From: Desulfotalea psychrophila LSv54
GTDB taxonomy: Bacteria > Desulfobacterota > Desulfobulbia > Desulfobulbales > Desulfocapsaceae
DNA length: 32,000 nt
NCBI RefSeq assembly: GCF_000025945.1
Contig: NC_006138.1
Span: forward strand, 2,640,001 to 2,672,000
Direction of reading: 5' to 3'
Part shown: positions 5,643-21,221 of the stretch, one piece after another
Layout of the letters: every line of letters begins with the position of its first letter
Position numbering within the stretch: position 1 is the first letter of the stretch
The notes under the pieces: model-generated
Seen by the model: the letters and a program-made list of their open reading frames with translations, nothing else
Databases searched by the model: none
What the model was told of the DNA's origin: nothing
Position numbers and translations under genes: made by a program

Positions 5643-5679
5643 AACGAAGTATCGTCTTGGGTCTCAACGTAATTCCGTT
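5643..5679. promoter_or_regulatory. Two copies of the AACG-N6-CGTT / GAATTACGT-type site, 65-100 nt upstream of the sigma-54 activator gene (putative autoregulatory sites)
   Basis: AACGAAGTATCGTC (5643..5656) and AACGTAATTCCGTT (5666..5679). The same motif family is found upstream of both sigma-54 promoters below. Confidence 0.45.
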
Positions 5680-5742
5680 TATAGTTATATAAAAAAACAT
5701 CAGAGCTCATAAAAATCAACTCCACTTTTTACACTATAAAAT

Positions 5743-7383
5743 ATGATCGACCAGACTCCATTTATCTTCAGTAATGAAGTGATGCACCAGCTACTACTTG
5801 ACATGGCCCAGCAACGAACGACTAGCAACCTGTTTGAGGTCGTTGTCTCACGCCTTGCCACTTTCTCCCATGTTGCTCTGGCAAGAATTTGGGTTCTGCG
5901 GCCGGGAGACATTTGTCATAGCTGTCCGGTCAAGGCAGAATGTCATGATCGCAGCAACTGCTTGCATCTAGTTGCCAGTGCCGGCCAATCAAATACCGAA
6001 GGTGTACAGTGGACAAATATTCATGGGAAGTACAGAAGATTCCCCTTAGGTGCTAGAAAAGTTGGCCATATTGCAGCTACCAGTAAACCCGTGGTTGTTG
6101 AGCACATTAATAAAGACTCTCAATGGATTTTGGATGTCGAATGGGCTCAACAAGAAAAAATTCAGGGCTTTGCTGGCCAGCCTCTAATTTTTCAAGGCAA
6201 GGTCCTGGGTGTATTAGCTGTCTTCACAAAGATCAACCTGACATCTGATGTACTCAAGGTGCTCAGAGTTATCGCCGACCATGTAGCGGCAGCGCTTGCC
6301 AACACTCTGGCTTTTGAGGAAATCGAAATCCTTAAACAGAAGCTTGAACTGGAAAACAGTTACCTTCGAGAAGAGCTTTTTGATGTAGCCTCCATGGGAG
6401 GTTTTGTTGGCAACAGTTATGCCTTACAGCAGGTTCTTAATCAGGTTGACGCCGTTGCTCCTACCAATGCAAGTGTACTTATCTTAGGTGAATCTGGAAC
6501 AGGGAAGGAACTTGTGGCCCGTGAAATCCATCATCGTAGCTCGCGAAAAGATAAACCGATGATCAAGGTCAACTGCGCGTCGATTCCTCGAGATTTATTT
6601 GAAAGCGAATTCTTCGGTCATGCCAAAGGAGCATTTACCGGAGCATTAGCCGACCGAAACGGCAGATTCAGCGCGGCAGATGGTGGCACCCTTTTCCTTG
6701 ATGAGTTGGGAGATATACCCTTGGAACATCAGAGTAAACTGCTCCGGGTACTCCAGGAAGGCGAATATGAAAGAGTAGGAGAAAACCAGACACGAAAAAC
6801 AGATGTCCGCATTATCGCAGCTACAAACAAAAACTTACATGAAGAAATCGTAGCCAAGAAATTTCGCGAAGACCTCTACTTTCGACTTAATGTCTTCCCC
6901 ATCAGAGTCCCCCCACTGAGGGAAAGAAAGGAAGATATCGAATTGCTGGCAAACTATTTTCTGCAGAAAATATTGCAAGAGATGAACATTACCCAACAAC
7001 AATTTAACATGCAACAACTGCAAGAGTTGAAAGAATATGACTGGCCTGGAAATGTAAGGGAGCTACGTAATATCGTTGAACGATCCGCTATTTTTTCTCT
7101 TTCTGGGCCATTACGCCTACATCTCCCGGAAACAGCTGATTCAAGCACCCATTCTCACGCTATTACGACTGAGGACAGCTCAGTGATTCTCTCTGAGAAA
7201 AAGATGCTTGAGCTACAACGAGAAAATACCAGGGCAGCACTGGCACAGTGTAACTGGAAAATTTATGGCATTGACGGAGCAGCTACCCTTCTCGGCATTA
7301 AGCCCACGACACTGGCTACAAGAATAAAAAAAATGAACTTGAAGCGCCCCGTGGCAAACAATAGGGCTGATATTTGCGATTAA
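5743..7383 (+). CDS. Sigma-54-dependent transcriptional activator (GAF sensor with Cys/His-rich insert - AAA+ - Fis-type HTH)
   Basis: Walker A GESGTGKE, sigma-54 contact loop GAFTGA, Walker B LFLDELG, and ESEFFGH. The C-terminal HTH is AATLLGIKPTTLATRIKKMNL. The N-terminal ~190 aa is GAF-like and contains CHSCPVKAECHDRSNCLH. Confidence 0.9.
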   Translation: MIDQTPFIFSNEVMHQLLLDMAQQRTTSNLFEVVVSRLATFSHVALARIWVLRPGDICHSCPVKAECHDRSNCLHLVASAGQSNTEGVQWTNIHGKYRRFPLGARKVGHIAATSKPVVVEHINKDSQWILDVEWAQQEKIQGFAGQPLIFQGKVLGVLAVFTKINLTSDVLKVLRVIADHVAAALANTLAFEEIEILKQKLELENSYLREELFDVASMGGFVGNSYALQQVLNQVDAVAPTNASVLILGESGTGKELVAREIHHRSSRKDKPMIKVNCASIPRDLFESEFFGHAKGAFTGALADRNGRFSAADGGTLFLDELGDIPLEHQSKLLRVLQEGEYERVGENQTRKTDVRIIAATNKNLHEEIVAKKFREDLYFRLNVFPIRVPPLRERKEDIELLANYFLQKILQEMNITQQQFNMQQLQELKEYDWPGNVRELRNIVERSAIFSLSGPLRLHLPETADSSTHSHAITTEDSSVILSEKKMLELQRENTRAALAQCNWKIYGIDGAATLLGIKPTTLATRIKKMNLKRPVANNRADICD

Positions 7384-7522
7384 GAAGTCCACCCGCAAAA
7401 AAAAGAGCTCAGCGGCTCCAGCTCAGGGCGAATCATATCATGAGCACCTTCAACCTGTTACACTATGAGATAGCCTATTGATACATGAATCATCTTCTGG
7501 GACTTTGTGATCGTATCAAAAA

Positions 7523-7576
7523 AGCAGAATTACGTTCCTATTTAACACGGAATTACGTTTTTAACGAAATATCGTT
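7523..7576 (+). promoter_or_regulatory. Triple upstream-activator-site cluster for promoter P1
   Basis: AGCAGAATTACGTT (7523..7536), CACGGAATTACGTT (7546..7559), AACGAAATATCGTT (7563..7576). Centre-to-centre spacing is 23 then 17 bp. The proximal centre is ~72 bp upstream of the TGGCAC. Confidence 0.55.
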
Positions 7577-7640
7577 TTTACTAAGCTGCTGGCAAAACAA
7601 ACAACAGCGCTACAGTAAGCACTTAGATATTATCAAGGTT

Positions 7641-7656
7641 TGGCACAGCATGTGCA
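7641..7656 (+). promoter_or_regulatory. Sigma-54 (-24/-12) promoter P1, with no ORF downstream
   Basis: TGGCAC-AGCAT-GTGCA has correct GG-N10-GC spacing. The consensus is TGGCAC-N5-TTGCW. Confidence 0.6.
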
Positions 7657-7994
7657 TTATATCTAATATGCTTCGTACCAGTAGGTAACTGAAGTATCGC
7701 CAAACAACTGGACATGGAGGGGCATAGCCAAAATTACAGCCCCGACCAGGCATATTTCATGCTTAGACGGTAAACCTTGAGTACTGGGCAAGCCAGGACA
7801 CTAAACGTCAATTTTGTTTGAGCGCTACAAACGACACCAAGATAAAAATAACTCGAAGATTTTGTTGAAAAAACTGATGTAGCTGTTTGGCCGTCTCCCA
7901 AGGATAATCTTTACTGAGCTATTAACCATTTATAATTGTTTAGACCTCTACCAATAGTTTCACCTCAATAGCTGAGGATCTTTATCTAAAGGAG

Positions 7995-8207
7995 ATGGCT
8001 GAATCTCTCTCGTGGCAGAAGCCAAGGCAGCAGCGATTTCAATGCCGAGAATACCATAAAACCTTTCAACTTGTGTGCCTGGCAAGGGCCTAGAAGCCAA
8101 GGACGAAGCGAATCAAGAGAAAAACAATCGGTTTTGCCAGAAGCACTGAATTACATGGAGCTTTGGTAAAAGCACGAGCTTTGCTACAAAAGTTGGCGCC
8201 CACCTGA
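7995..8207 (+). pseudogene. Possible decayed IS1-type (InsA-like zinc-finger) transposase N-terminal fragment
   Basis: AAGGAG then ATG gives MAESLSWQKPRQQRFQCREYHKTFQLVCLARA*, which resembles the InsA pattern QRY-x-C-xxC-x-KT-W/F-QL but has lost a Cys. An in-frame stop is followed by more basic sequence. The match is made from memory only. Confidence 0.3.
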
Positions 8208-8235
8208 TCGTTCATAAAAGAAAGAACTCTCAAAG

Positions 8236-8261
8236 GGAAGTCTGACCTCTTCCAGACTTCC
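8236..8261 (-). terminator. Hairpin terminator downstream of the FGE-like gene (potentially bidirectional)
   Basis: GGAAGTCTG (8236..8244) pairs with CAGACTTCC (8253..8261) across an 8-nt loop. The minus-strand transcript continues CUUUGAGAGUUCUUUCUUUU. The + strand continues UCUCUGAUUUCUC. Confidence 0.5.
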
Positions 8262-8281
8262 TCTCTGATTTCTCATCTAGA

Positions 8282-8983
8282 TCAGAATGCAAGGCGAAAA
8301 CCAATGTTGTAATAGGCAAAGGTTTTCGGTCTGTGGTAACGATATGCTGACCGGACAAAACGCGCGCTTGCATTCCATGCACCGCCACGATAGACCTTGT
8401 GATCGGTACTGTCATCCACCCATGCTGAACCGTCCGCAGGTGCCCCCTCGTAGTTGCCATGCCATGTGTCCTCGCACCACTCAAAAACATTGCCATGCAT
8501 ATCGTAGAGCCCGAAACCATTGGCGGGATGCCCCCCTACCGGAGAATTCTGACAGGAAATCTTTGTGCCATAATTCACCTGCTCTATGGTAATAGCGTCC
8601 CCGAAGAAAAAACGAGTAGTGGTATGAGCCCGACAGGCATATTCCCATTCCGCCTCGCTCGGAAGACGATATCTGCTGTCATTGACCGCATTCAATTTTT
8701 TAATAAATTCCTGAGCATCCTCCCAGCTCACACCATCTGCAGGGCAGTTCTCACGGATAAGATCACTGGGATTTTCCCCCATTATTTTCAGATACTGCTC
8801 CTGAGTCACCTCGAAGCAGGCCATGTGAAAATCATCGACATGAACATTGTGCTGAGGGCCCTCAACCGCCTGCCGCTCCTTTTCCGCCACAGGGCTTCCC
8901 ATCATAAAATCACCGCCTGCTATAGGTGCGAATTTAATTCCCGTTACTTCATCGATAATAATCTGACTGATATTTTTACTCAT
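8282..8983 (-). CDS. Formylglycine-generating-enzyme (SUMF1/EgtB/PvdO) family protein, cytoplasmic, lacking the FGE catalytic Cys pair
   Basis: Motifs: GGDFMMGS, VSWEDAQEFIKKLN, YRLPSEAEWEYACRA, NGFGLYDMHGNVFEWCED, RGGAWNASARFVRSAYRY...NIGFRLA. No signal peptide. GAAGG lies upstream of ATG 8983 (internal M6 of the track ORF). Confidence 0.85.
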   Translation of the reverse strand: MSKNISQIIIDEVTGIKFAPIAGGDFMMGSPVAEKERQAVEGPQHNVHVDDFHMACFEVTQEQYLKIMGENPSDLIRENCPADGVSWEDAQEFIKKLNAVNDSRYRLPSEAEWEYACRAHTTTRFFFGDAITIEQVNYGTKISCQNSPVGGHPANGFGLYDMHGNVFEWCEDTWHGNYEGAPADGSAWVDDSTDHKVYRGGAWNASARFVRSAYRYHRPKTFAYYNIGFRLAF

Positions 8984-8994
8984 TATATTAACCT

Positions 8995-9021
8995 TCACAA
9001 AAATAAAACCGCTTGAGCGGT
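8995..9021 (-). terminator. Terminator-like hairpin plus U-tract inside the 5' leader of the FGE-like gene (possible attenuator)
   Basis: The minus strand reads ACCGC-UCAA-GCGGU followed by UUUAUUUUUG, immediately before the RBS. The stem is only 5-6 bp. Confidence 0.3.
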
Positions 9022-9181
9022 GGTTGAACTTCCCGTGGCGATGGCAGAGTTGCAGACAACCCTGCTATCTACTTTTTAAGACTCCACCCTTGATGGCGAC
9101 ATTAATATAACAAACCGACATAACAAAATTTATTCAGTAAGAGACGGTCCATTAACCAACGTTTTCATTTCACTCTTATTT

Positions 9182-9197
9182 AGCAAAGGTTGTGCCA
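9182..9197 (-). promoter_or_regulatory. Sigma-54 (-24/-12) promoter P2 driving the FGE-like gene
   Basis: The minus strand reads TGGCAC-AACCT-TTGCT, a near-perfect match to TGGCAC-N5-TTGCW. It lies ~185 nt upstream of the start codon at 8983. Confidence 0.7.
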
Positions 9198-9212
9198 GAT
9201 AGCCAAAGGAGG

Positions 9213-9225
9213 CAAGAGTTTGATA
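9213..9225 (-). promoter_or_regulatory. IHF-like site between the UAS cluster and P2
   Basis: The minus strand reads TATCAA-ACTC-TTG, matching WATCAANNNNTTR. It is centred at about -48 relative to the predicted TSS. Confidence 0.3.
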
Positions 9226-9262
9226 TTGCGTCTATAGTTAAAGGAAATAATTTGTAGCAAGA

Positions 9263-9316
9263 AACGGAATTACGTCGCCAACGAAATTCCGAGCTGAGCA
9301 GCAACGTAATTTCGTT
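9263..9316 (-). promoter_or_regulatory. Triple upstream-activator-site cluster for promoter P2
   Basis: AACGGAATTACGTC (9263..9276), AACGAAATTCCGAG (9280..9293), AACGTAATTTCGTT (9303..9316). Read from the distal end on the minus strand the spacing is 23 then 17 bp, the same as at P1. The proximal centre is ~72 bp from the TGGCAC. Confidence 0.55.
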
Positions 9317-9441: not shown

Positions 9442-9477
9442 AAAAAAAGCCCTGCCGAACCTTTATTTCGACAAGGC
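9442..9477 (-). terminator. Rho-independent terminator of the flavoprotein gene
   Basis: The minus-strand RNA reads GCCUUGUCGA-(10 nt)-UCGGCAGGGC, a 10-bp stem including 2 G.U pairs, followed by UUUUUUUAU. Confidence 0.6.
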
Positions 9478-9501: not shown

Positions 9502-10137
9502 TTACCGAATAAAATTGGTCATAATTTTCTCTACTGGTTCAGGGGCGGGGATGTGCTCTTTTCCGTGTTCAATAAGCCTCATAATCCAGGCCATGTTTTT
9601 GCCTAGCACCTCCATTACCTGCTTACCTTCGCCATCCTGCTCCATTTCTCCAGGCTTAAGGCCATGGGCCACATTCCAATAGTTCGAGGATGGCATAATC
9701 ATCTCAGAGTAGTTAATATAATGATTTAACGTGTCAACTACGGGAATCCCGCCGGATCGCCTGACCGCAGCCACAGCAGCTCCGACCTTATGCCGGAAGA
9801 GATTTCCATTGACCGAAGAAACGAAAAAAGCTCTATCAAGAAAGGATTTCATTGTCCCTGCCACACCGGCAAAATGGACAGGAGATCCAAGCAGAATCCC
9901 ATCGGCCGCCTTCATCTTCTGAATCCATTCATTGACTGGATCGTTTTTTATGGCACACGCTTCATTTTGATTTTTCACACAGCCGTAACAGGCAATGCAG
10001 CCCTGTATTTTTTTCTTGCCGACATGAATCATTTCCGTCTCAATCCCAGCACCTTCCAGCTGATCAAGAACTATCTGCAATGAACAAGCGGTATTCCCTT
10101 CTTTATTAGGGCTGCCGTTAAATGCAATAACTTTCAA
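9502..10137 (-). CDS. Iron-sulfur flavoprotein (Isf-like NADPH-dependent FMN reductase / flavodoxin fold)
   Basis: (M)KVIAFNGSPNKEGNT is the flavodoxin-like FMN loop. A compact C-x2-C-x2-C-x7-C motif (CIACYGCVKNQNEAC) is typical of Isf. AAGGAG lies 7 nt upstream of TTG 10137, so the track start at 10233 is probably too long. Confidence 0.8.
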   Translation of the reverse strand: MKVIAFNGSPNKEGNTACSLQIVLDQLEGAGIETEMIHVGKKKIQGCIACYGCVKNQNEACAIKNDPVNEWIQKMKAADGILLGSPVHFAGVAGTMKSFLDRAFFVSSVNGNLFRHKVGAAVAAVRRSGGIPVVDTLNHYINYSEMIMPSSNYWNVAHGLKPGEMEQDGEGKQVMEVLGKNMAWIMRLIEHGKEHIPAPEPVEKIMTNFIR

Positions 10138-10286
10138 TTGTATTCTCCTTTTTTCTAGATTAGTTCCTACTCTGGCAAGTTCCTGTTCTGCTTGCATTGC
10201 ATCGAGCCGCCCCTTACGACGGAGATGGGACAAGCATTACAGGCCTCGTATTCAAGAATCTGGCCTTCCTTTTTTTCACACTTTTT

Positions 10287-10302
10287 TATACCGAACGGTA
10301 TA
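10287..10302. promoter_or_regulatory. Palindromic operator candidate TATACCG-AA-CGGTATA between the TetR gene and the flavoprotein gene
   Basis: Perfect 7-bp arms with a 2-bp spacer, located in the 180-bp gap upstream of the Isf-like gene and just after the TetR stop codon. Confidence 0.45.
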
Positions 10303-10319
10303 TTTTATAACAAAAAAAA

Positions 10320-10904
10320 TTACATCTTTCTGATAAGATCCTCTATATAGCCCAGAGCGTTTTCAATATAGCTTTTGTCTTGTGTTACTTTACTCATGGC
10401 AAAACCACCTTCAACAAGACAGATGAGTATATAAGCTGTTTGAGAGGCATTCGTCTTTTTAGAAAATTCCCCCTCACTCATTCCGTCTTCAATAAAGGAA
10501 ATTATTGATTGCCTCCATGAGGCAATAGTCTTCTGCACTGCGACTTGCAACTGTTCATTCACATCATAACTGTCAACAGCAGTGTTAAGAACAGGACAGC
10601 CACCATTATGGAGGATATGTTGATGAATGGCCAGGTACGTTTTTGGGTATGCAAGCAACTTTCCACGGTTAGTTTTTGCAGCCAAAATATTGTCCTGCAA
10701 GGCATTATAAACAAAGAGCACATTATATTTGTACGCACACAATGCGACCTCATCTTTGTTTTTAAAATTACCGTATATAGAACCCTTAGTCAGCCCTGTC
10801 GCATCGACAAGATCTTTAAGGCTGGTTGCGGCATAACCCTTTTTATTAAAAACCGGAGCTACTTGCTCAATAACAAATTGTTTAGTCTTTTCTGCTTTAC
10901 TCAT
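10320..10904 (-). CDS. TetR/AcrR family transcriptional regulator
   Basis: N-terminal HTH GYAATSLKDLVDATGLTKGSIYGNFKNKDEV, followed by an all-helical C-terminal domain. The start is taken at MSKAEKTK; alternative upstream starts run up to 10934. Confidence 0.85.
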   Translation of the reverse strand: MSKAEKTKQFVIEQVAPVFNKKGYAATSLKDLVDATGLTKGSIYGNFKNKDEVALCAYKYNVLFVYNALQDNILAAKTNRGKLLAYPKTYLAIHQHILHNGGCPVLNTAVDSYDVNEQLQVAVQKTIASWRQSIISFIEDGMSEGEFSKKTNASQTAYILICLVEGGFAMSKVTQDKSYIENALGYIEDLIRKM

Positions 10905-11032
10905 GGCTAAATTTAACATTAAGAAGGAGATCAAAACAGCTCAAGCTGTAAAACAATCGAGTTCCCCCGAAAGATAGATCGATAATTTTACTAAAAAACT
11001 GGAAGCACAACCGTAACAACAAGCCGGCCCCC

Positions 11033-17644: not shown

Positions 17645-18607
17645 CTAAGCATCGTCTCCAGCGAACGCCCGAAAGGTCTCCATGGCAAAGAGGGCTCTTG
17701 CAGACGGGCTTCTTCTCTTCTGTCCTTCCCCATCGATGAGATCAACCCGGGGCTGAAGGCCATAGCCGTTGGCAACCTGAATGGCGAGGCCGGGCCTGGC
17801 GTTCAGCTCCAGAATCATGGGGCCCTTATTCATATCCAGGACGATATCCACCCCGAGGTAACCGAGACCGGTGATTTCATAACACCTGGCGGCCAAATCT
17901 ACAAAGGCAGACCAATCAGGAACCGAAAAGGTGGAGAGGTCTTTGCCGGTATCCGGATGACGAGTCACAGGACGGTCAAACTGAACGGCCTTGAGGGCAT
18001 GGCCGGTGCCGATATCGATACCCACTCCCACGGCGCCCTGGTGCAGGTTGGCCTTGCCATCCGAATCTTCTGTGGAGAGACGGGTCATGGCCATTATCGG
18101 GTATCCCTTGTAGACAATGACGCGGATATCGGGCACGCCCTGGTAAGAAAAGCCTGTAAAGGCAGAGGAGAACTCAACCATCTCCTCAATCATGGCCACG
18201 TCGTTATTACCACCAAGGCTGAAGAGACCACTGAGGGTGTTCGAGGCATGACGTTTAACCTCCTGAAGGGTGACCCTCGCCCCGCCTGGTTTGAGGAACG
18301 CCTTACCGTCGCGTCCGCCGATGACGAGGATCCCCTTACCACCACTGCCCCGGGCCGGTTTGATGACAAAGGGAGGACAGGTTTCCAGAAATGCTTCAAG
18401 CTCCCTGACATTGCCCTGGGTCTTAACCACCCCGAGAAGCCTGGGCGCGGAGATCCCGGCCTTTGCCAGAATTACCTTGGTCTTCAGTTTGTCATCCACC
18501 AAGGGATAGAGTTTTCTCGGGTTGTTTTGCGCGATCAGAACCACATTGCGTCTGTTCATACCCACAATACCGGCCTTTTTCAGTTGGGCGGGAGAGGCAA
18601 AAAACAT
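17645..18607 (-). CDS. Alpha-L-glutamate ligase-related ATP-grasp protein (RimK-related amidoligase)
   Basis: The N-terminus GIVGMNRRNVVLIAQNNPRKLYPLVDDKLKTKVILAKAGISAP is characteristic of the rimK-related E-ligase family. ATP-grasp motifs FVIKPARGSGGKGI and LGVDIVLD...ILELNARPG are present. Confidence 0.85.
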   Translation of the reverse strand: MFFASPAQLKKAGIVGMNRRNVVLIAQNNPRKLYPLVDDKLKTKVILAKAGISAPRLLGVVKTQGNVRELEAFLETCPPFVIKPARGSGGKGILVIGGRDGKAFLKPGGARVTLQEVKRHASNTLSGLFSLGGNNDVAMIEEMVEFSSAFTGFSYQGVPDIRVIVYKGYPIMAMTRLSTEDSDGKANLHQGAVGVGIDIGTGHALKAVQFDRPVTRHPDTGKDLSTFSVPDWSAFVDLAARCYEITGLGYLGVDIVLDMNKGPMILELNARPGLAIQVANGYGLQPRVDLIDGEGQKRRSPSARALFAMETFRAFAGDDA

Positions 18608-18609
18608 AC

Positions 18610-20124
18610 TTACTTGCCCCCGGACAGAGGTTCAAATCGTCGCAACTCGGTCAGCCTGTAACCGGAGTAACTTCCAATCATAATGATCACAGCCAGAACC
18701 ACCAGCAAAAGCTCGGGGAAGGAATAGGTCAGGTGGCCTACATAGGGGTTTTTCATAACCAGAAAGATAATTGATGCTGAAAAGAGGCTACCTCCACCCT
18801 GAATGAAAACATCCCTGGGGCCCTCTTCTTCCCAGAGAACAGACATGCGCTCAATGGTCCAGGAAATAATGATCATGGGAAAAAAGGTCACCCTTAAGCC
18901 CGCCTCTATCCCCATCTTGATACTAATAACGCTAATGGCCACATAGATAATGATGACAAAGACAAGTACCGCCGAGATCCTCGGCACAAGGAGCAAGTTC
19001 AGGCTACTCAGATAGTAACGGAGAATCAAACCAATCCCGACGATAATAATAAAGAGTGACAGCCCTGCCAGAAGATTAACCTGCAAGAAAACCAAGGCAA
19101 TAAGAATAGGCATAAATGTGCCTGAGGTTTGCACCCCCACAAGGTTCCTAAGGATCACAATGATGAGGGCGCCGATGGGAATGAGGAGCAAGAGTTTAAA
19201 GGTGTTCTGCTGAGAGACGGGAAGACTGTAGATGGAGAAATCAATGAACTTGCTACCGCTGTACCTACCGTGCTGCACAGCAGCTCTTTGGGCCGAGATC
19301 TCTCCTGTCAGGGTGGAATACCTGATCTTTCCGCCTGTGCCGCCCATAATCTCAAGGATAGACTCACTGCCATGCTGCCACTGCAGGAACTGATCCCGAT
19401 TTTCCAGCTCTGCGGTTCTTGGGTTGATCAACTGCACCTGCCGTCCGTTCTGGATTTCAATAAAGCTTCTCAGCTTCTGCTTTTTCTTTGACACTGCTAA
19501 ATTGAGCCCCTTAACAGAGCGTGACTTCACCCCGGCTCTGTTCAGCAAGCTACAGGCAAGATTTACCTTCCCGCCGTATTCGTCCGCGTCGGTGAGGAGC
19601 AACGAGGCGTCCTGATTGATGGGGTCATTAAGGGACACAAGGATTGCCCTTGCCAGCCCCAACTCCGAGGTCTCTTTGCCAAGGGCCTCGGTGACAATAT
19701 GATCGGCTGCCACCTCATGGGCTCCGCTGAAAATAATCACTGCTGCCGGTTCTATCTCCTTCTGGCTAACCTCTCCTCCATCACTGCGCCTATAGGCCGT
19801 GGACCTGAAAAAAATCTTCTGCCGGCCACTTACATCAGCGGCACGCCAGACAGCCCGGCTTCCCTTTCGCTCAAAGCTATACCCTTCAGCAATAGATTTT
19901 CTACCCAGGACTGCGATGGCATCATTGGGGTCGGGCGTATTAACCGAGATCTGCACCGGCCCACCGTCAGCGATAAAGGAGATGGTCGCCTCAACGGTCC
20001 AGGCCATCTCTTTTTTTCCTGGAAGCAGGGGAAAGCCCAACTCTATATGCTTGTATATGGTGGCACCTACCCCCAACACGACCAGAACAGCAACAATGAC
20101 AATAATCTGAATTTGCTGTTTCAT
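18610..20124 (-). CDS. Inactive-transglutaminase domain fused to a 7-TM module (partner of the ATP-grasp ligase)
   Basis: N-terminal TM, then a ~290-aa extracytoplasmic domain, then ~7 hydrophobic helices in the C-terminal 200 aa. The gene has an ATGA overlap with the upstream gene and a 2-nt gap to the ATP-grasp gene. This architecture matches the conserved three-gene amidoligase system described by comparative genomics. Confidence 0.7.
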   Translation of the reverse strand: MKQQIQIIVIVAVLVVLGVGATIYKHIELGFPLLPGKKEMAWTVEATISFIADGGPVQISVNTPDPNDAIAVLGRKSIAEGYSFERKGSRAVWRAADVSGRQKIFFRSTAYRRSDGGEVSQKEIEPAAVIIFSGAHEVAADHIVTEALGKETSELGLARAILVSLNDPINQDASLLLTDADEYGGKVNLACSLLNRAGVKSRSVKGLNLAVSKKKQKLRSFIEIQNGRQVQLINPRTAELENRDQFLQWQHGSESILEIMGGTGGKIRYSTLTGEISAQRAAVQHGRYSGSKFIDFSIYSLPVSQQNTFKLLLLIPIGALIIVILRNLVGVQTSGTFMPILIALVFLQVNLLAGLSLFIIIVGIGLILRYYLSSLNLLLVPRISAVLVFVIIIYVAISVISIKMGIEAGLRVTFFPMIIISWTIERMSVLWEEEGPRDVFIQGGGSLFSASIIFLVMKNPYVGHLTYSFPELLLVVLAVIIMIGSYSGYRLTELRRFEPLSGGK

Positions 20125-20858
20125 CTCTGTTTCTCACTCATGGGGGTAGTTACGTTTTTACGATTTACGTCGACCACAAATTCGCCCTGAAGGAAATTTC
20201 GACCTATGAGAATCTGGTATGCAAAATCAGAGCGATCGGCCAGAGAAAATTCCCTAACAAGCCTGACGCCCCCCATCATACTCTTTACCGTGACCACAGG
20301 TCTTTTCAGCGACTTCTCTCCATGGCGCTTAATCGTTACATTACGAGAGAGACGACATTTCATCTCTTTTTTCTGACCGCTTCTCCTATCTCTCACCATA
20401 AAACGAACCCATTTTTCCCCATCACGCTCAAAGCGCCTTATATCCTTAGCATCAAGGGAAGAGGTCGTTGCCCCAGTATCGATCCTGGCAGGCATTGTCA
20501 CCCCGGACTTAATAAGGGTGACCGGTTCCACCTCACCAATGAGGCGAAGACCGGCAGAGGGCTGAAAAACCGGTTTTATACCGGTCTCAGGGCCCGGTTT
20601 AACTTCGATTCCGACAGCCGGTTTAACTTCGATTCCGACAGCCGGTTTAGCTTCAATGCCGACAGCCGGTTTAGCTTCAATTCCGACAGCCGGTTTAGCT
20701 TCAATTCCGACAGCCGGTTTAGCTTCAATTCCGACAGCCGGTTTAACCCCGGCTTCAATGTCCGGCCTGGATAGGGTACATGAACAAAGTAGCACCGGAA
20801 CCAATAAAAGCATCACTATTCTCTGCCAGCCAAAGATGGCTTTCCTGATCTGAACCAT
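20121..20858 (-). CDS. Retropepsin-like 'ATP-dependent Zn protease' (PF05618/RimB-like) with a signal/lipoprotein-like N-terminus and a (KPAVGIEA)n repeat linker
   Basis: The probable start M21 gives MVQIRKAIFGWQRIVMLLLVPVLLCSC. About six and a half KPAVGIE[AV] repeats follow. The catalytic-type motif is ARIDTGATTSSL, followed by VRFMV...ILIGRNFL. Confidence 0.75.
   Translation of the reverse strand: MVQIRKAIFGWQRIVMLLLVPVLLCSCTLSRPDIEAGVKPAVGIEAKPAVGIEAKPAVGIEAKPAVGIEAKPAVGIEVKPAVGIEVKPGPETGIKPVFQPSAGLRLIGEVEPVTLIKSGVTMPARIDTGATTSSLDAKDIRRFERDGEKWVRFMVRDRRSGQKKEMKCRLSRNVTIKRHGEKSLKRPVVTVKSMMGGVRLVREFSLADRSDFAYQILIGRNFLQGEFVVDVNRKNVTTPMSEKQR
20594..20760 (-). repeat. 24-bp head-to-tail tandem repeat (6 full units plus 1 degenerate) inside the protease gene
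   Basis: On the + strand, units CCGGTTTA(A/G)CTTC(G/A)AT(T/G)CCGACAG lie at 20594, 20618, 20642, 20666, 20690 and 20714. A degenerate unit starts at 20738. Units 4-6 are identical. Confidence 0.95.
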
Positions 20859-21221
20859 TTTTACTCTTTTCACCTGAAAATATATTAACATTCGCCAATT
20901 ATCATTGCCGAAACTCATTCAGCACCGGGCCTGTCATAAACCGCAAGAAGGTTGCCTCCAACCAATCTTGCGGCGACGCCCCCACGAGGACCCCTCTTTT
21001 CCCAGCTCACCTTTTGCCATATTGCCAGTCTGAGGCATGCAGATCTCACTGCCCATATAACATTGTTCTTGTCAATCAGCAACACCACTGATAGAAAGCT
21101 ACCTATTTACAGATGCTTGGAAGAAGACCATCCCCCATTTACACCTGAAGATAATACCTTTACAGATTAGTGAGATTTTATTTCCATAGCTCTCACGGTT
21201 CACACCTGCACATTTATTTAC

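What the first reader, a model, noticed from the sequence alone, without database searches (positions are those of the whole stretch)
5643..9316. Self-contained sigma-54 regulon readable from the DNA: GAF-EBP, eight GAATTACGT/AACG-N6-CGTT sites, and two convergent -24/-12 promoters with mirrored architecture
- **Motif occurrences.** The 9-mer GAATTACGT or its complement occurs exactly at 5668, 7528, 7550 and 9268. One-mismatch variants lie at 7565, 9282 and 9305. All fall in three short clusters. About 0.25 exact copies would be expected by chance in 2x32 kb.
- **Shared geometry.** Two clusters contain three sites each, with centre spacings of 23 then 17 bp. In both, the proximal site is ~72 bp upstream of a sigma-54 promoter: TGGCAC-N5-GTGCA at 7641 (+) and TGGCAC-N5-TTGCT at 9197 (-). 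The two regulatory regions therefore have the same geometry on opposite strands and face each other.
- **Third cluster.** It has two sites and sits 65-100 bp upstream of the adjacent sigma-54 activator gene, which suggests autoregulation.

Together this gives a regulator, its probable DNA site and its targets within 4 kb.
Basis: partly seen in the sequence, partly recalled or inferred. Interest (0 to 1): 0.7.

Follow-up and report, generated by a model that had tools for sequence, protein, structure and literature searches.

The report
Sigma-54 activator, enhancers, two promoters
This stretch of the Desulfotalea psychrophila genome holds a sigma-54 activator gene, eight copies of its DNA site and two facing promoters; the same layout recurs across several phyla in an unstudied activator family with a four-cysteine sensor, but one promoter here has no gene behind it.

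Summary
Eight (A/C)ACG-N6-CGT(T/G) dyads lie in three clusters. Two clusters are triplets with centres 23 and 17 bp apart. In each, the nearest site is centred 72 bp upstream of one of the two best sigma-54 promoter matches in the window, and the two promoters face each other.

The regulator is a GAF/AAA+/HTH enhancer-binding protein. Its family was found in 519 species genomes, and all 86 related copies examined carry an invariant C-x2-C-x5-C-x5-C-x-H loop. About 70% of the 84 sources examined (the window plus 83 related loci) carry the same dyads next to the gene, and where a promoter is detected the geometry is the same.

Three corrections:
- The minus-strand promoter drives a PvdO-like, FGE-fold gene that lacks the FGE cysteines.
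- The plus-strand promoter matches, by position, the promoter of a CO-dehydrogenase-like (CooS-like) plus HPP operon in relatives. That operon is absent here, and about 0.6 kb of non-coding DNA follows.
- "Self-contained" could not be tested.

The system works like NorR and PexR (three enhancers, GAF-gated) but belongs to neither. The signal is inferred to be redox or thiol stress. I rate it a new variant of a known kind, of moderate interest.

The parts
5643..5656 (.). Enhancer dyad 1a, AACGAAGTATCGTC (one mismatch to AACG-N6-CGTT)
5666..5679 (.). Enhancer dyad 1b, AACGTAATTCCGTT (perfect). It lies 23 bp from 1a and 64 bp upstream of the regulator's ATG. A third dyad is not recognisable.
5743..7383 (+). 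Sigma-54 enhancer-binding protein, 546 aa. It has a GAF domain with invariant C58, C61, C67, C73 and H75, an AAA+ domain with GAFTGA, and a C-terminal Fis-type HTH. It is 100% identical to a Desulfotalea psychrophila protein.
7523..7536 (.). Enhancer dyad 2a (farthest from the promoter), AGCAGAATTACGTT. The left half is degenerate.
7546..7559 (.). Enhancer dyad 2b, CACGGAATTACGTT
7563..7576 (.). Enhancer dyad 2c (nearest the promoter), AACGAAATATCGTT. Its centre is 71.5 bp upstream of TGGCAC.
7641..7656 (+). Sigma-54 promoter, TGGCACAGCATGTGCA. The predicted transcription start is about 7667. By position it corresponds to the CooS-like/HPP operon promoter of relatives.
7667..8270 (+). Predicted non-coding transcript of about 0.6 kb. 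It has no ORF of 50 aa or more, stop codons in all frames, and no Rfam, tRNA or protein similarity.
8235..8262 (.). GC-rich hairpin between the convergent units. It is a candidate two-way terminator.
8282..8983 (-). PvdO-like, FGE-fold protein of 233 aa. The ATG at 8983 is set by homology. It lacks the FGE cysteine pair and is the only coding target in the window.
8984..9171 (-). Predicted 188-nt 5' leader. It contains a terminator-like hairpin (9021-9008) followed by a U-run just before the ribosome-binding site.
9182..9197 (-). Sigma-54 promoter, TGGCACAACCTTTGCT (perfect consensus). The predicted transcription start is about 9171.
9263..9276 (.). Enhancer dyad 3a (nearest the promoter), AACGGAATTACGTC. 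Its centre is 72.5 bp upstream of TGGCAC.
9280..9293 (.). Enhancer dyad 3b, AACGAAATTCCGAG. The right half is degenerate.
9303..9316 (.). Enhancer dyad 3c (farthest from the promoter), AACGTAATTTCGTT (perfect)

Best explanation
**What it is.** The locus is a small sigma-54 regulon run by a one-component GAF/AAA+/HTH enhancer-binding protein (5743-7383). That protein belongs to a widespread, apparently uncharacterised family.

**Shown by the sequence and by comparison with relatives**
- The (A/C)ACG-N6-CGT(T/G) dyads are the family's enhancer sites.
- They come as three tandem dyads, enough for three dimers, which is one hexamer's worth of protein.
- The nearest dyad sits about 72 bp upstream of the -24 element.
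- In this window two such modules face each other.
- The minus-strand module drives a cytoplasmic PvdO-like, FGE-fold gene (8983-8282) through a 188-nt leader.
- The plus-strand module is the counterpart of the promoter of a CooS-like CO-dehydrogenase/HPP operon in relatives. That operon is gone here, so the intact promoter points into about 0.6 kb of non-coding DNA that ends at the shared hairpin.
- Two further dyads upstream of the regulator gene are what remains of the ancestral layout, in which the regulator and the FGE-like gene were transcribed in opposite directions from one enhancer region.

**Inferred, not shown**
- By analogy with NorR and PexR, the GAF domain holds the AAA+ ATPase off until a signal arrives.
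- The sensor is a metal or iron-sulfur centre on the invariant C-x2-C-x5-C-x5-C-x-H loop.
- The signal is an oxidant, NO or a thiol-reactive stress.
- The protein then assembles as a hexamer on the three dyads and remodels the sigma-54 RNA polymerase.
- Binding at cluster 1 gives autoregulation, of unknown sign.
- Whether the plus-strand RNA has a function, or is a by-product of a retained promoter, is open.
For: **Sites and promoters in the window**
- The motif counts are far above chance.
- The two best sigma-54 promoter matches in 32 kb are exactly the two flanked by dyad triplets.
- The mirror arrangement is recovered independently as inverted repeats.

**The regulator**
- Its domains are GAF, Sigma54_activat and an AAA lid.
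- GAFTGA and the Walker motifs are readable in the sequence.

**Family-wide conservation**
- 519 species genomes encode the GAF type.
- The four cysteines and the histidine are present in 86 of 86 copies.
- 39 of 84 sources have a sigma-54 promoter with at least two dyads 62-125 bp upstream. The nearest dyad is centred 70.5-78.5 bp away.
- 20 more have dyad pairs at 16-18, 21-23 or 38-40 bp spacing next to the gene.
- The HTH residues are nearly invariant.

**Targets elsewhere**
- CMD/AhpD-like genes in 38 loci. The genes that follow them encode DUF1348, SnoaL, isochorismatase, Zn-ADH and thioredoxin domains.
- CooS-like genes.
- FGE-like genes.

**History of the plus-strand promoter**
- Relatives L085, L004 and L005 share the order FGE-like, regulator, DUF169, Mem_trans, then dyad triplet plus promoter, CooS-like, HPP.
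- The window and L004 share sequence through the spacer between the two nearest dyads.

**Precedent for three enhancers and GAF gating**
- NorR (PMC2831303, PMC2941729).
- PexR (PMC12754779).
Against: - There are no expression or binding data for this organism.
- rpoN is not in the window, so sigma-54 itself is assumed.
- The plus-strand promoter has no gene. It is unique among the 39 promoter modules examined, so it may be a relic.
- The non-coding stretch is not conserved in the nearest relatives. Those relatives are only 68-77% identical in protein, so this test is weak.
- The stretch is only weakly structured in 150-nt windows, even though the whole-length fold has a z-score of -4.87 (only 20 shuffles).
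- The cysteine loop is the least confident part of the AlphaFold model (pLDDT about 65-68), and no solved structure covers it.
- The target genes differ between clades, so the signal cannot be read from them with confidence.
- Cluster 1 lies upstream of any plausible -35 element, so it would not obviously repress.
Confidence: 0.72

Rival explanations
1. The plus-strand module (7523-7656) is a non-functional relic. After the CooS-like/HPP operon was lost or rearranged, the promoter and its three dyads were simply left behind. On this reading the real regulon here is only the PvdO-like gene, perhaps with autoregulation.
For: - Relatives place a CooS-like/HPP operon behind the equivalent promoter.
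- The window has no such genes.
- No D. psychrophila protein appears among the 120 best homologues of the CooS-like protein, all of which are at least 57% identical.
- The downstream 0.6 kb has no ORF, Rfam hit or homologue.
- Local RNA structure is weak.
- It is the only orphan among the 39 modules examined.
Against: - The promoter has one mismatch to the consensus. Two of its three dyads are as good as those of the working minus-strand module.
- Everything around the module has diverged beyond recognition from relatives. Unselected 14-mers would be expected to have decayed too.
- No remnant of CooS, DUF169, Mem_trans or HPP is detectable, so the loss is not recent.
- The dyads might also be kept as extra binding sites for the regulator.
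Confidence: 0.35
2. The plus-strand promoter makes a functional sigma-54-dependent non-coding RNA. It would act either as a trans-acting or structural RNA, or by convergent transcription (antisense read-through) that damps the PvdO-like gene switched on by the same regulator.
For: - The enhancer triplet and promoter are intact.
- The whole-length fold has a z-score of -4.87.
- A hairpin at 7851-8000 has a z-score of -2.2, and a stable hairpin closes the end.
- G+C is 43%, against 32-41% (one at 44%) for the neighbouring intergenic stretches.
- The U-tract after the plus-strand side of the terminator is poor, so read-through into the antisense of 8282-8983 is possible.
- Sigma-54-dependent non-coding RNAs are known in Desulfovibrio (PMC4641369).
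Against: - There are no homologues, so no covariation test is possible.
- Rfam finds nothing.
- The z-score rests on 20 shuffles and on long-range pairs.
- No other locus in the family shows such a target.
Confidence: 0.35
3. The regulator is an orthologue of NorR (NO sensor) or PexR (H2O2 sensor) and senses its signal through a mononuclear iron or zinc site in the GAF pocket.
For: - It has the same domain order and a three-enhancer layout (PMC2831303; PMC12754779).
- Antioxidant-type neighbours (AhpD-like, thioredoxin) occur in other phyla.
- The AAA+ domain is 40% identical to that of NorR.
Against: - The NCBIfam NorR model scores 372, against a cut-off of 476.
- The GAF domains do not align by BLASTP.
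- NorR sites are GT-N7-AC with 22/24 bp spacing, and the nearest lies 60 bp from TGGCAC.
- PexR repeats (CACCG-N6-CGGTG) are absent next to the regulator gene in all 87 loci.
- The PexR pocket contains a single cysteine, C122. This family has four invariant cysteines in one loop.
Confidence: 0.07
4. The regulator is a carbon monoxide sensor, because in Desulfobulbales and Desulfovibrionales it controls a CooS-type CO dehydrogenase.
For: - CooS-like genes sit behind the enhancer triplet in 12 or more loci.
- The NCBIfam CO_DH_cata model scores 476.8, against a cut-off of 478.
- Public sources name these proteins anaerobic CO dehydrogenase catalytic subunit.
Against: - In most of the family (38 loci, largely from Planctomycetota and Nitrospirota, clades I know as mostly aerobic) the target is a CMD/AhpD-like operon with thioredoxin or quinone-reductase-like genes, not a CO dehydrogenase.
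- D. psychrophila keeps the regulator but lacks this CooS-like gene.
Confidence: 0.1
5. The dyads are bound by some other transcription factor, and their closeness to the regulator gene is incidental.
For: None found. The only basis is the general caution that a motif is not proof of binding.
Against: - The dyads travel with the regulator gene across at least six phyla, whatever the neighbouring target is.
- They keep a fixed distance to sigma-54 promoters, which by established knowledge need an enhancer-binding protein.
Confidence: 0.03

Closest known systems
NorR of Escherichia coli (NO-sensing GAF enhancer-binding protein; norR-norVW)
   Same: - The domain order is GAF, AAA+, HTH.
- Three tandem dyad enhancers lie upstream of a sigma-54 promoter, and all three are needed for activity (PMC2831303).
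- The GAF domain represses the ATPase until the signal arrives (PMC2941729).
- The regulator gene lies beside its target.
- The AAA+ domain is 40% identical.
   Different: - The GAF domain is not alignable.
- The protein scores below the NorR model cut-off.
- The enhancer is GT-N7-AC with 22/24 bp spacing, and the nearest site is 60 bp from TGGCAC. Here it is ACG-N6-CGT with 23/17 bp spacing, 72 bp away.
- This family has a Cys4-His loop rather than an Asp/Cys/Arg mononuclear iron site.
PexR of Myxococcus xanthus (MXAN_1565; H2O2-sensing GAF enhancer-binding protein; PMC12754779)
   Same: - It has three interrupted palindromes with a 6-nt spacer upstream of sigma-54 promoters.
- It is transcribed divergently from an antioxidant gene.
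- Its GAF domain is auto-inhibitory and binds metal.
- Homologues are reported in Acidobacteriota, Nitrospirota and Planctomycetota.
- Extra repeats lie near the regulator's own promoter.
   Different: - The repeat sequence is CACCG-N6-CGGTG, which is absent beside the regulator in all 87 loci.
- The PexR metal ligands are H102, H120, C122 and D140, with a single cysteine in the pocket. Here there are four invariant cysteines and one histidine within 18 residues.
- The Myxococcota member of this family (Archangium, L060) lies beside a DUF1348-type gene, not ahpC.
- I had no PexR sequence to align directly.
Rrf2-type Fe-S sensors (NsrR; IscR, the latter from my own knowledge)
   Same: The C-x5-C-x5-C spacing of the three cluster-binding cysteines in ScNsrR (Cys93, Cys99, Cys105; PMC5411485) recurs here as C61-x5-C67-x5-C73. 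Here it is preceded by C58 and followed by H75.
   Different: The fold is unrelated (winged helix against GAF) and so is the output (repressor against sigma-54 activator). The resemblance is in spacing only, and cluster binding is untested.
Sigma-54 regulons of Desulfovibrio vulgaris Hildenborough (PMC4641369)
   Same: They show the same kind of organisation. One-component regulators lie next to sigma-54 promoters, have palindromic enhancer sites, and some drive non-coding RNAs.
   Different: No D. vulgaris regulator in that paper's table has the CooS-like, FGE-like or AhpD-like targets seen here. D. vulgaris does not appear among the 120 best homologues of this regulator.
PvdO of Pseudomonas aeruginosa (PDB 5hha), for the target gene
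   Same: It is the best solved relative (E = 2.5e-29, matching residues 21-232) and shares the FGE fold without the catalytic cysteine pair.
   Different: - From my own knowledge, PvdO is periplasmic and acts in pyoverdine maturation.
- This protein starts without an obvious signal peptide.
- It sits in a sulfate reducer, with no siderophore genes in the window.
- It scores 137 against the 500 cut-off of the PvdO model.

Membership tests
Bacterial enhancer-binding protein, group III (GAF-AAA+-HTH) | Sigma-54 interaction AAA+ domain with Walker A, Walker B and the GAFTGA loop | tested here: met
   PF00158 scores E = 1.8e-72. GESGTGKE, LFLDE and KGAFTGA can be read in the protein sequence.
Bacterial enhancer-binding protein, group III (GAF-AAA+-HTH) | N-terminal GAF sensory domain | tested here: met
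   PF01590 and PF13185 are hit. The AlphaFold model has the GAF fold, and Foldseek matches GAF domains (3ci6, 5w10) at E about 1e-9.
Bacterial enhancer-binding protein, group III (GAF-AAA+-HTH) | C-terminal Fis-type HTH | tested here: inconclusive
   Pfam HTH_8 is not reported for the window protein, but it is precomputed for several relatives. The C-terminal GAAxLLGxKPTTLxxRIKK is nearly invariant.
Sigma-54 promoter | GG and GC ten bases apart within TGGCAC-N5-TTGCW, with an enhancer upstream | tested here: met
   The match at 9197(-) has 0 mismatches and the one at 7641(+) has 1. They are the two best matches in 32 kb. Their placement relative to the dyads is conserved in 39 sources.
Sigma-54 promoter | Transcription start about 12 nt after the -12 GC, dependent on rpoN | not testable with these tools
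   No transcript data exist, and rpoN is not in the window.
NorR | Reaches the NCBIfam equivalog score | tested here: not met
   It scores 372.4 against a cut-off of 476. The GAF domain is not aligned by BLASTP.
NorR | Three GT-N7-AC enhancers | tested here: not met
   There are three enhancers, but the sequence is ACG-N6-CGT and the geometry differs from E. coli norR-norV.
PexR | CACCG-N6-CGGTG repeats in threes | tested here: not met
   Only 3 isolated matches occur in 87 loci, none beside the regulator gene.
PexR | Metal ligands H102, H120, C122 and D140 in the GAF pocket | not testable with these tools
   No PexR sequence was at hand and no supplements are held. The family's invariant residues in the second half of the GAF domain include no His, Cys or Asp set of that kind, which argues against membership.
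NifA / FhlA | Reaches the NCBIfam equivalog score | tested here: not met
   NifA scores 396.8 against 528.85, and FhlA scores 388.1 against 830. The "formate hydrogenlyase activator" names given by some sources are therefore unfounded.
Formylglycine-generating enzyme (target gene) | FGE-sulfatase fold | tested here: met
   PF03781 scores E = 1.7e-46.
Formylglycine-generating enzyme (target gene) | Copper-binding cysteine pair after the RGGS(W/Y) motif | tested here: not met
   The sequence reads RGGAWNASARFVRSAYRY, with no cysteine. The best solved relative is PvdO, not FGE. The position of the cysteine pair in true FGE is from my own knowledge.
Fe-S or Zn-Cys4 redox sensor (proposed for the GAF loop) | Four invariant cysteines suitably spaced | tested here: met
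   C-x2-C-x5-C-x5-C-x-H is present in 86 of 86 copies. Three of the four cysteines were not part of the pattern used to fetch the loci.
Fe-S or Zn-Cys4 redox sensor (proposed for the GAF loop) | Actual metal or cluster binding and a response to signal | not testable with these tools
   The loop has pLDDT of only about 65-68, and no solved homologue covers it.

The most novel reading that the evidence does not exclude
The regulator would be the founding example of a third branch of GAF-gated sigma-54 activators, spanning several phyla, beside NorR (NO) and PexR (H2O2). The branch is defined by an invariant Cys4-His loop and its own ACG-N6-CGT triple enhancer. It would sense thiol-reactive, oxidant or NO stress through an Fe-S or Zn-Cys4 centre. 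In D. psychrophila, the promoter orphaned by loss of the CooS-like operon would have been kept because it now makes a sigma-54-dependent non-coding RNA. That RNA would converge on, and tune, the remaining target gene.
Probability: 0.3. Interest if true: 0.7.

Novelty: new variant of a known kind. Interest (0 to 1): 0.5.

Why it matters
- If the family senses its signal through the Cys4-His loop, it adds a new sensor chemistry to the GAF-gated sigma-54 activators. It does so in clades where stress regulation is poorly known: sulfate reducers, nitrite oxidisers, planctomycetes and acidobacteria.
- It comes with a ready-made site model and a fixed promoter geometry, so its regulons can be predicted in hundreds of genomes.
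- It assigns a regulatory context to several families of unknown role: the PvdO-like FGE-fold protein, DUF1348, and a His-rich CooS-like CO dehydrogenase with HPP.
- The orphan promoter is a small natural experiment on what happens to an enhancer-dependent promoter when its operon is lost.
- For D. psychrophila alone, the result is an ordinary though neat regulon prediction.

Tried and rejected
**A hidden gene behind the plus-strand promoter.** None was found.
- There is no ORF of 50 aa or more, and all three frames are full of stops, so a selenoprotein or read-through gene is unlikely.
- The 32-aa ORF at 7995-8093 has its GGAG directly against the ATG, so I did not accept it.
- blastx against the CooS-like, DUF169, Mem_trans, HPP, FGE-like and regulator proteins of L085 gave only noise (best E = 0.42).

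**A known RNA.**
- Rfam found nothing at the gathering threshold and only noise at the E-value threshold.
- No tRNA or tmRNA was found.
- No tandem repeats of note were found.

**A CsrA-sponge idea.** I counted about 7 GGA triplets by hand in 600 nt, roughly what base composition predicts, and dropped the idea.

**Conservation of the non-coding stretch.** blastn and tblastx against L001 and L004-L007 found only the dyads.

**A repeated or mobile element.** The stretch has no other copy in the window.

**Membership of NorR, NifA or FhlA.** All score below their cut-offs.

**PexR-type repeats.** They are absent beside the regulator.

**Literature.**
- No orthologue was evident in the D. vulgaris sigma-54 regulome paper.
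- Searches for the family, and for D. psychrophila transcript data, found nothing specific.
- No supplements are held for the PexR paper.

**Other look-ups.**
- An exact-match look-up of the regulator found no contig.
- I looked by eye for a sigma-54 promoter on the minus strand left of cluster 1, as a remnant of the ancestral divergent promoter. Only a badly spaced TGGTGA...AGC was there.

Full report
**Source and observation.** The window comes from Desulfotalea psychrophila. The 546-aa protein encoded at 5743-7383 is 100% identical to a protein of that organism on a 3.52-Mb contig.

- GAATTACGT occurs exactly four times against 0.19 expected.
- AACG-N6-CGTT occurs exactly three times against 0.15 expected.
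- The core ACG-N6-CGT occurs nine times against 1.42 expected, and six of the nine lie in the three clusters.

Read as 14-mers there are eight sites:
- cluster 1: 5643 and 5666;
- cluster 2: 7523, 7546 and 7563;
- cluster 3: 9263, 9280 and 9303.

The "one-mismatch" 9-mer at 7565 in fact has three mismatches, although that site is a perfect palindrome. Centre spacings are 23/17 bp in cluster 2 and the mirror image in cluster 3. The nearest site is centred 71.5 bp from TGGCAC at 7641(+) and 72.5 bp from TGGCAC at 9197(-). These are the two best sigma-54 promoter matches in the whole window. The repeat finder reports the mirror independently as a 50-nt inverted repeat together with the promoter pair.

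**The regulator.**
- Pfam finds GAF, the sigma-54 interaction domain and an AAA lid. GAFTGA and the Walker motifs are readable.
- NCBIfam places it below the cut-offs for NifA, FhlA and NorR, so the "FhlA" names some sources give it are not justified.
- An alignment of 19 relatives at 55-76% identity shows four invariant cysteines and a histidine (C58, C61, C67, C73, H75) in one loop, and a nearly invariant HTH.
- A scan of one genome per species, using the GAF domain alone, found 519 relatives. They include Desulfobulbales, Desulfovibrionales, Nitrospira, Planctomycetota, Acidobacteriota, Nitrospinota, Nitrosomonas, Archangium and Limisphaerales.
- The motif C-x2-C-x5-C-x5-C-x-H is present in 86 of 86 fetched copies. 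Three of the four cysteines were not part of the search pattern.
- An AlphaFold model is a GAF fold (pLDDT 81) in which the cysteine loop is the weakest part. Neither Foldseek nor a sequence search of the PDB finds anything covering that loop.

**The sites belong to this regulator.**
- In 39 of 84 sources, a TGGCAC-N5-TTGC-type promoter has at least two AACG-N6-CGTT-like dyads 62-125 bp upstream. The nearest dyad is centred 70.5-78.5 bp from TGGCAC, and the others follow at +17-20 and +21-23 bp. The aligned upstream regions show three dyads in nearly every case.
- Twenty of the remaining loci have ACG-N6-CGT pairs at the same spacings just upstream of the regulator gene. The Archangium copy has three.
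- The dyads therefore follow the regulator across phyla whatever the neighbouring gene is.

**The targets.**
- The minus-strand promoter drives 8983-8282. The start codon is fixed by 80% identity to the relative in L085.
- That protein has the FGE-sulfatase fold. Its best solved relative is PvdO, and it lacks cysteines after RGGAW, so it is not a formylglycine-generating enzyme.
- In other Desulfobulbales this gene is transcribed divergently from the regulator.
- In other clades the target next to the regulator is most often a CMD/AhpD-like gene (38 loci). It is followed by genes with DUF1348, SnoaL, isochorismatase, Zn-ADH, alpha/beta-hydrolase or thioredoxin domains.
- In Desulfovibrionales and Desulforhopalus the target is a 644-688-aa CooS-like protein with a His-rich N-terminus, followed by an HPP membrane protein.
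- In Geomonas it is an MSMEG_0572/Sll0783 cluster.
- In one Desulfovibrio (L014) the regulator gene itself has the full enhancer-promoter module.

**The plus-strand promoter.**
- Behind it there is no ORF of 50 aa or more. All frames are full of stops. There is no Rfam, tRNA or protein similarity.
- In relatives the order is FGE-like, regulator, DUF169, Mem_trans, then dyad triplet plus promoter, CooS-like, HPP.
- The window's plus-strand module shares even the spacer between the two nearest dyads with the Desulforhopalus CooS-like promoter.
- The window holds none of those genes. No D. psychrophila protein is among the 120 best homologues of the CooS-like protein.
- So this promoter is the positional counterpart of one whose operon has been lost.
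- The minus-strand module is orthologous to the FGE-like promoter of the Desulfotalea sp. genome (L007), including flanking bases. Cluster 1 is the two-site remainder of the old divergent region.
- Whether the transcript matters is open. The 609-nt stretch folds better than shuffles (z = -4.87, 20 shuffles). Local 150-nt windows are unremarkable apart from a hairpin at 7851-8000 and the terminal hairpin. There is no homologue to test covariation.
- The promoter and dyads are still intact although all surrounding sequence has diverged. That argues for some retained use.

**How it most likely works.**
- By analogy with NorR (PMC2831303, PMC2941729) and PexR (PMC12754779), dimers occupy the three dyads.
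- The GAF domain blocks the AAA+ domain until the signal arrives.
- A hexamer then forms and activates sigma-54 RNA polymerase about 72 bp away.
- The sensor is inferred to be the Cys4-His loop. Its C-x5-C-x5-C spacing matches the cluster ligands of the [4Fe-4S] NO sensor NsrR (PMC5411485). A Zn-Cys4 thiol switch is equally possible.
- The mix of targets (AhpD-like, thioredoxin, quinone-reductase-like) points to oxidant, NO or thiol-reactive stress rather than CO. This is inference only.

**Comparison with known systems.**
- It works like NorR and PexR but fails their membership tests. It scores below the NorR cut-off and its GAF domain is not alignable.
- The E. coli norR-norV enhancers are GT-N7-AC at 22/24 bp spacing, with the nearest 60 bp from TGGCAC.
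- PexR repeats are absent beside the regulator, and the PexR pocket has a single cysteine.
- I found no paper describing this family in the held library.

**Verdict.** This is a new variant of a known kind, of moderate interest.

Noticed in passing
window 9008-9021 (minus strand), within the leader 8984-9171: A terminator-like hairpin, ACCGCUCAAGCGGU followed by UUUUAUUUUU, lies about 25 nt before the start codon of the PvdO-like gene. The Desulfotalea sp. relative (L007) has only a 65-nt leader. It could be an attenuator, or the end of a short leader RNA.
   Followed up: partly
window 7064-7077: A ninth good dyad, TACGTAATATCGTT, lies inside the regulator's own coding sequence, in the region encoding RELRNIVER. 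It may be a by-product of that conserved peptide or a real internal site.
   Followed up: no
window 7404-7419 (minus strand): A hairpin followed by eight T's lies just after the regulator's stop codon, but it is oriented to terminate minus-strand transcription, and no minus-strand gene ends there. It hints at minus-strand transcripts crossing the non-coding stretch.
   Followed up: no
window 8017-8036 and 8092-8111; 7885-8005: Inside the non-coding stretch there is a 20-nt direct repeat, AGAAGCCAAGG(C/A)(A/C)G(C/A)AGCGA, 75 bp apart. There is also a long imperfect hairpin whose arms lie at about 7890-7925 and 7965-8005.
   Followed up: partly
window 5700-5745: The regulator's ATG has no Shine-Dalgarno sequence, and A/T-rich -10-like hexamers (TACACT, TATAAA) lie directly before it. 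This suggests a leaderless or near-leaderless mRNA, as was proposed for pexR in PMC12754779.
   Followed up: no
L014 5874(+) and 7755(+): In Desulfovibrio sp. PCE-4 the regulator gene itself is preceded by a full three-dyad sigma-54 module, and the CooS-like gene follows it with a second module. This implies positive autoregulation in that lineage.
   Followed up: partly
L003, L004, L085 and other loci: the CooS-like genes: The regulated CooS-like proteins carry a His-rich N-terminal extension (for example HHVHDHDHNHGHHHHNH) and are followed by an HPP-family membrane protein. They score 476.8 against the 478 cut-off of the CO-dehydrogenase model. The closest non-Desulfobacterota copy is 87% identical, in Desulfosporosinus sp. 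BG, which suggests lateral transfer.
   Followed up: partly
L001 3397-4827: In an uncultured Desulfobulbus, the FGE-like gene is followed by three similar-sized small genes (127-131 aa) with no Pfam match.
   Followed up: no
window 9502-10934: A TetR-family regulator gene and an FMN-reductase gene lie on the same strand, one after the other, immediately beyond cluster 3. They have their own terminator at 9449-9477. They look like an unrelated small detoxification unit.
   Followed up: no
window 17645-20918: Three adjacent minus-strand genes encode an ATP-grasp protein, an inactive transglutaminase fused to seven transmembrane helices, and a putative zinc protease. This is a conserved-looking trio of unknown role.
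   Followed up: no
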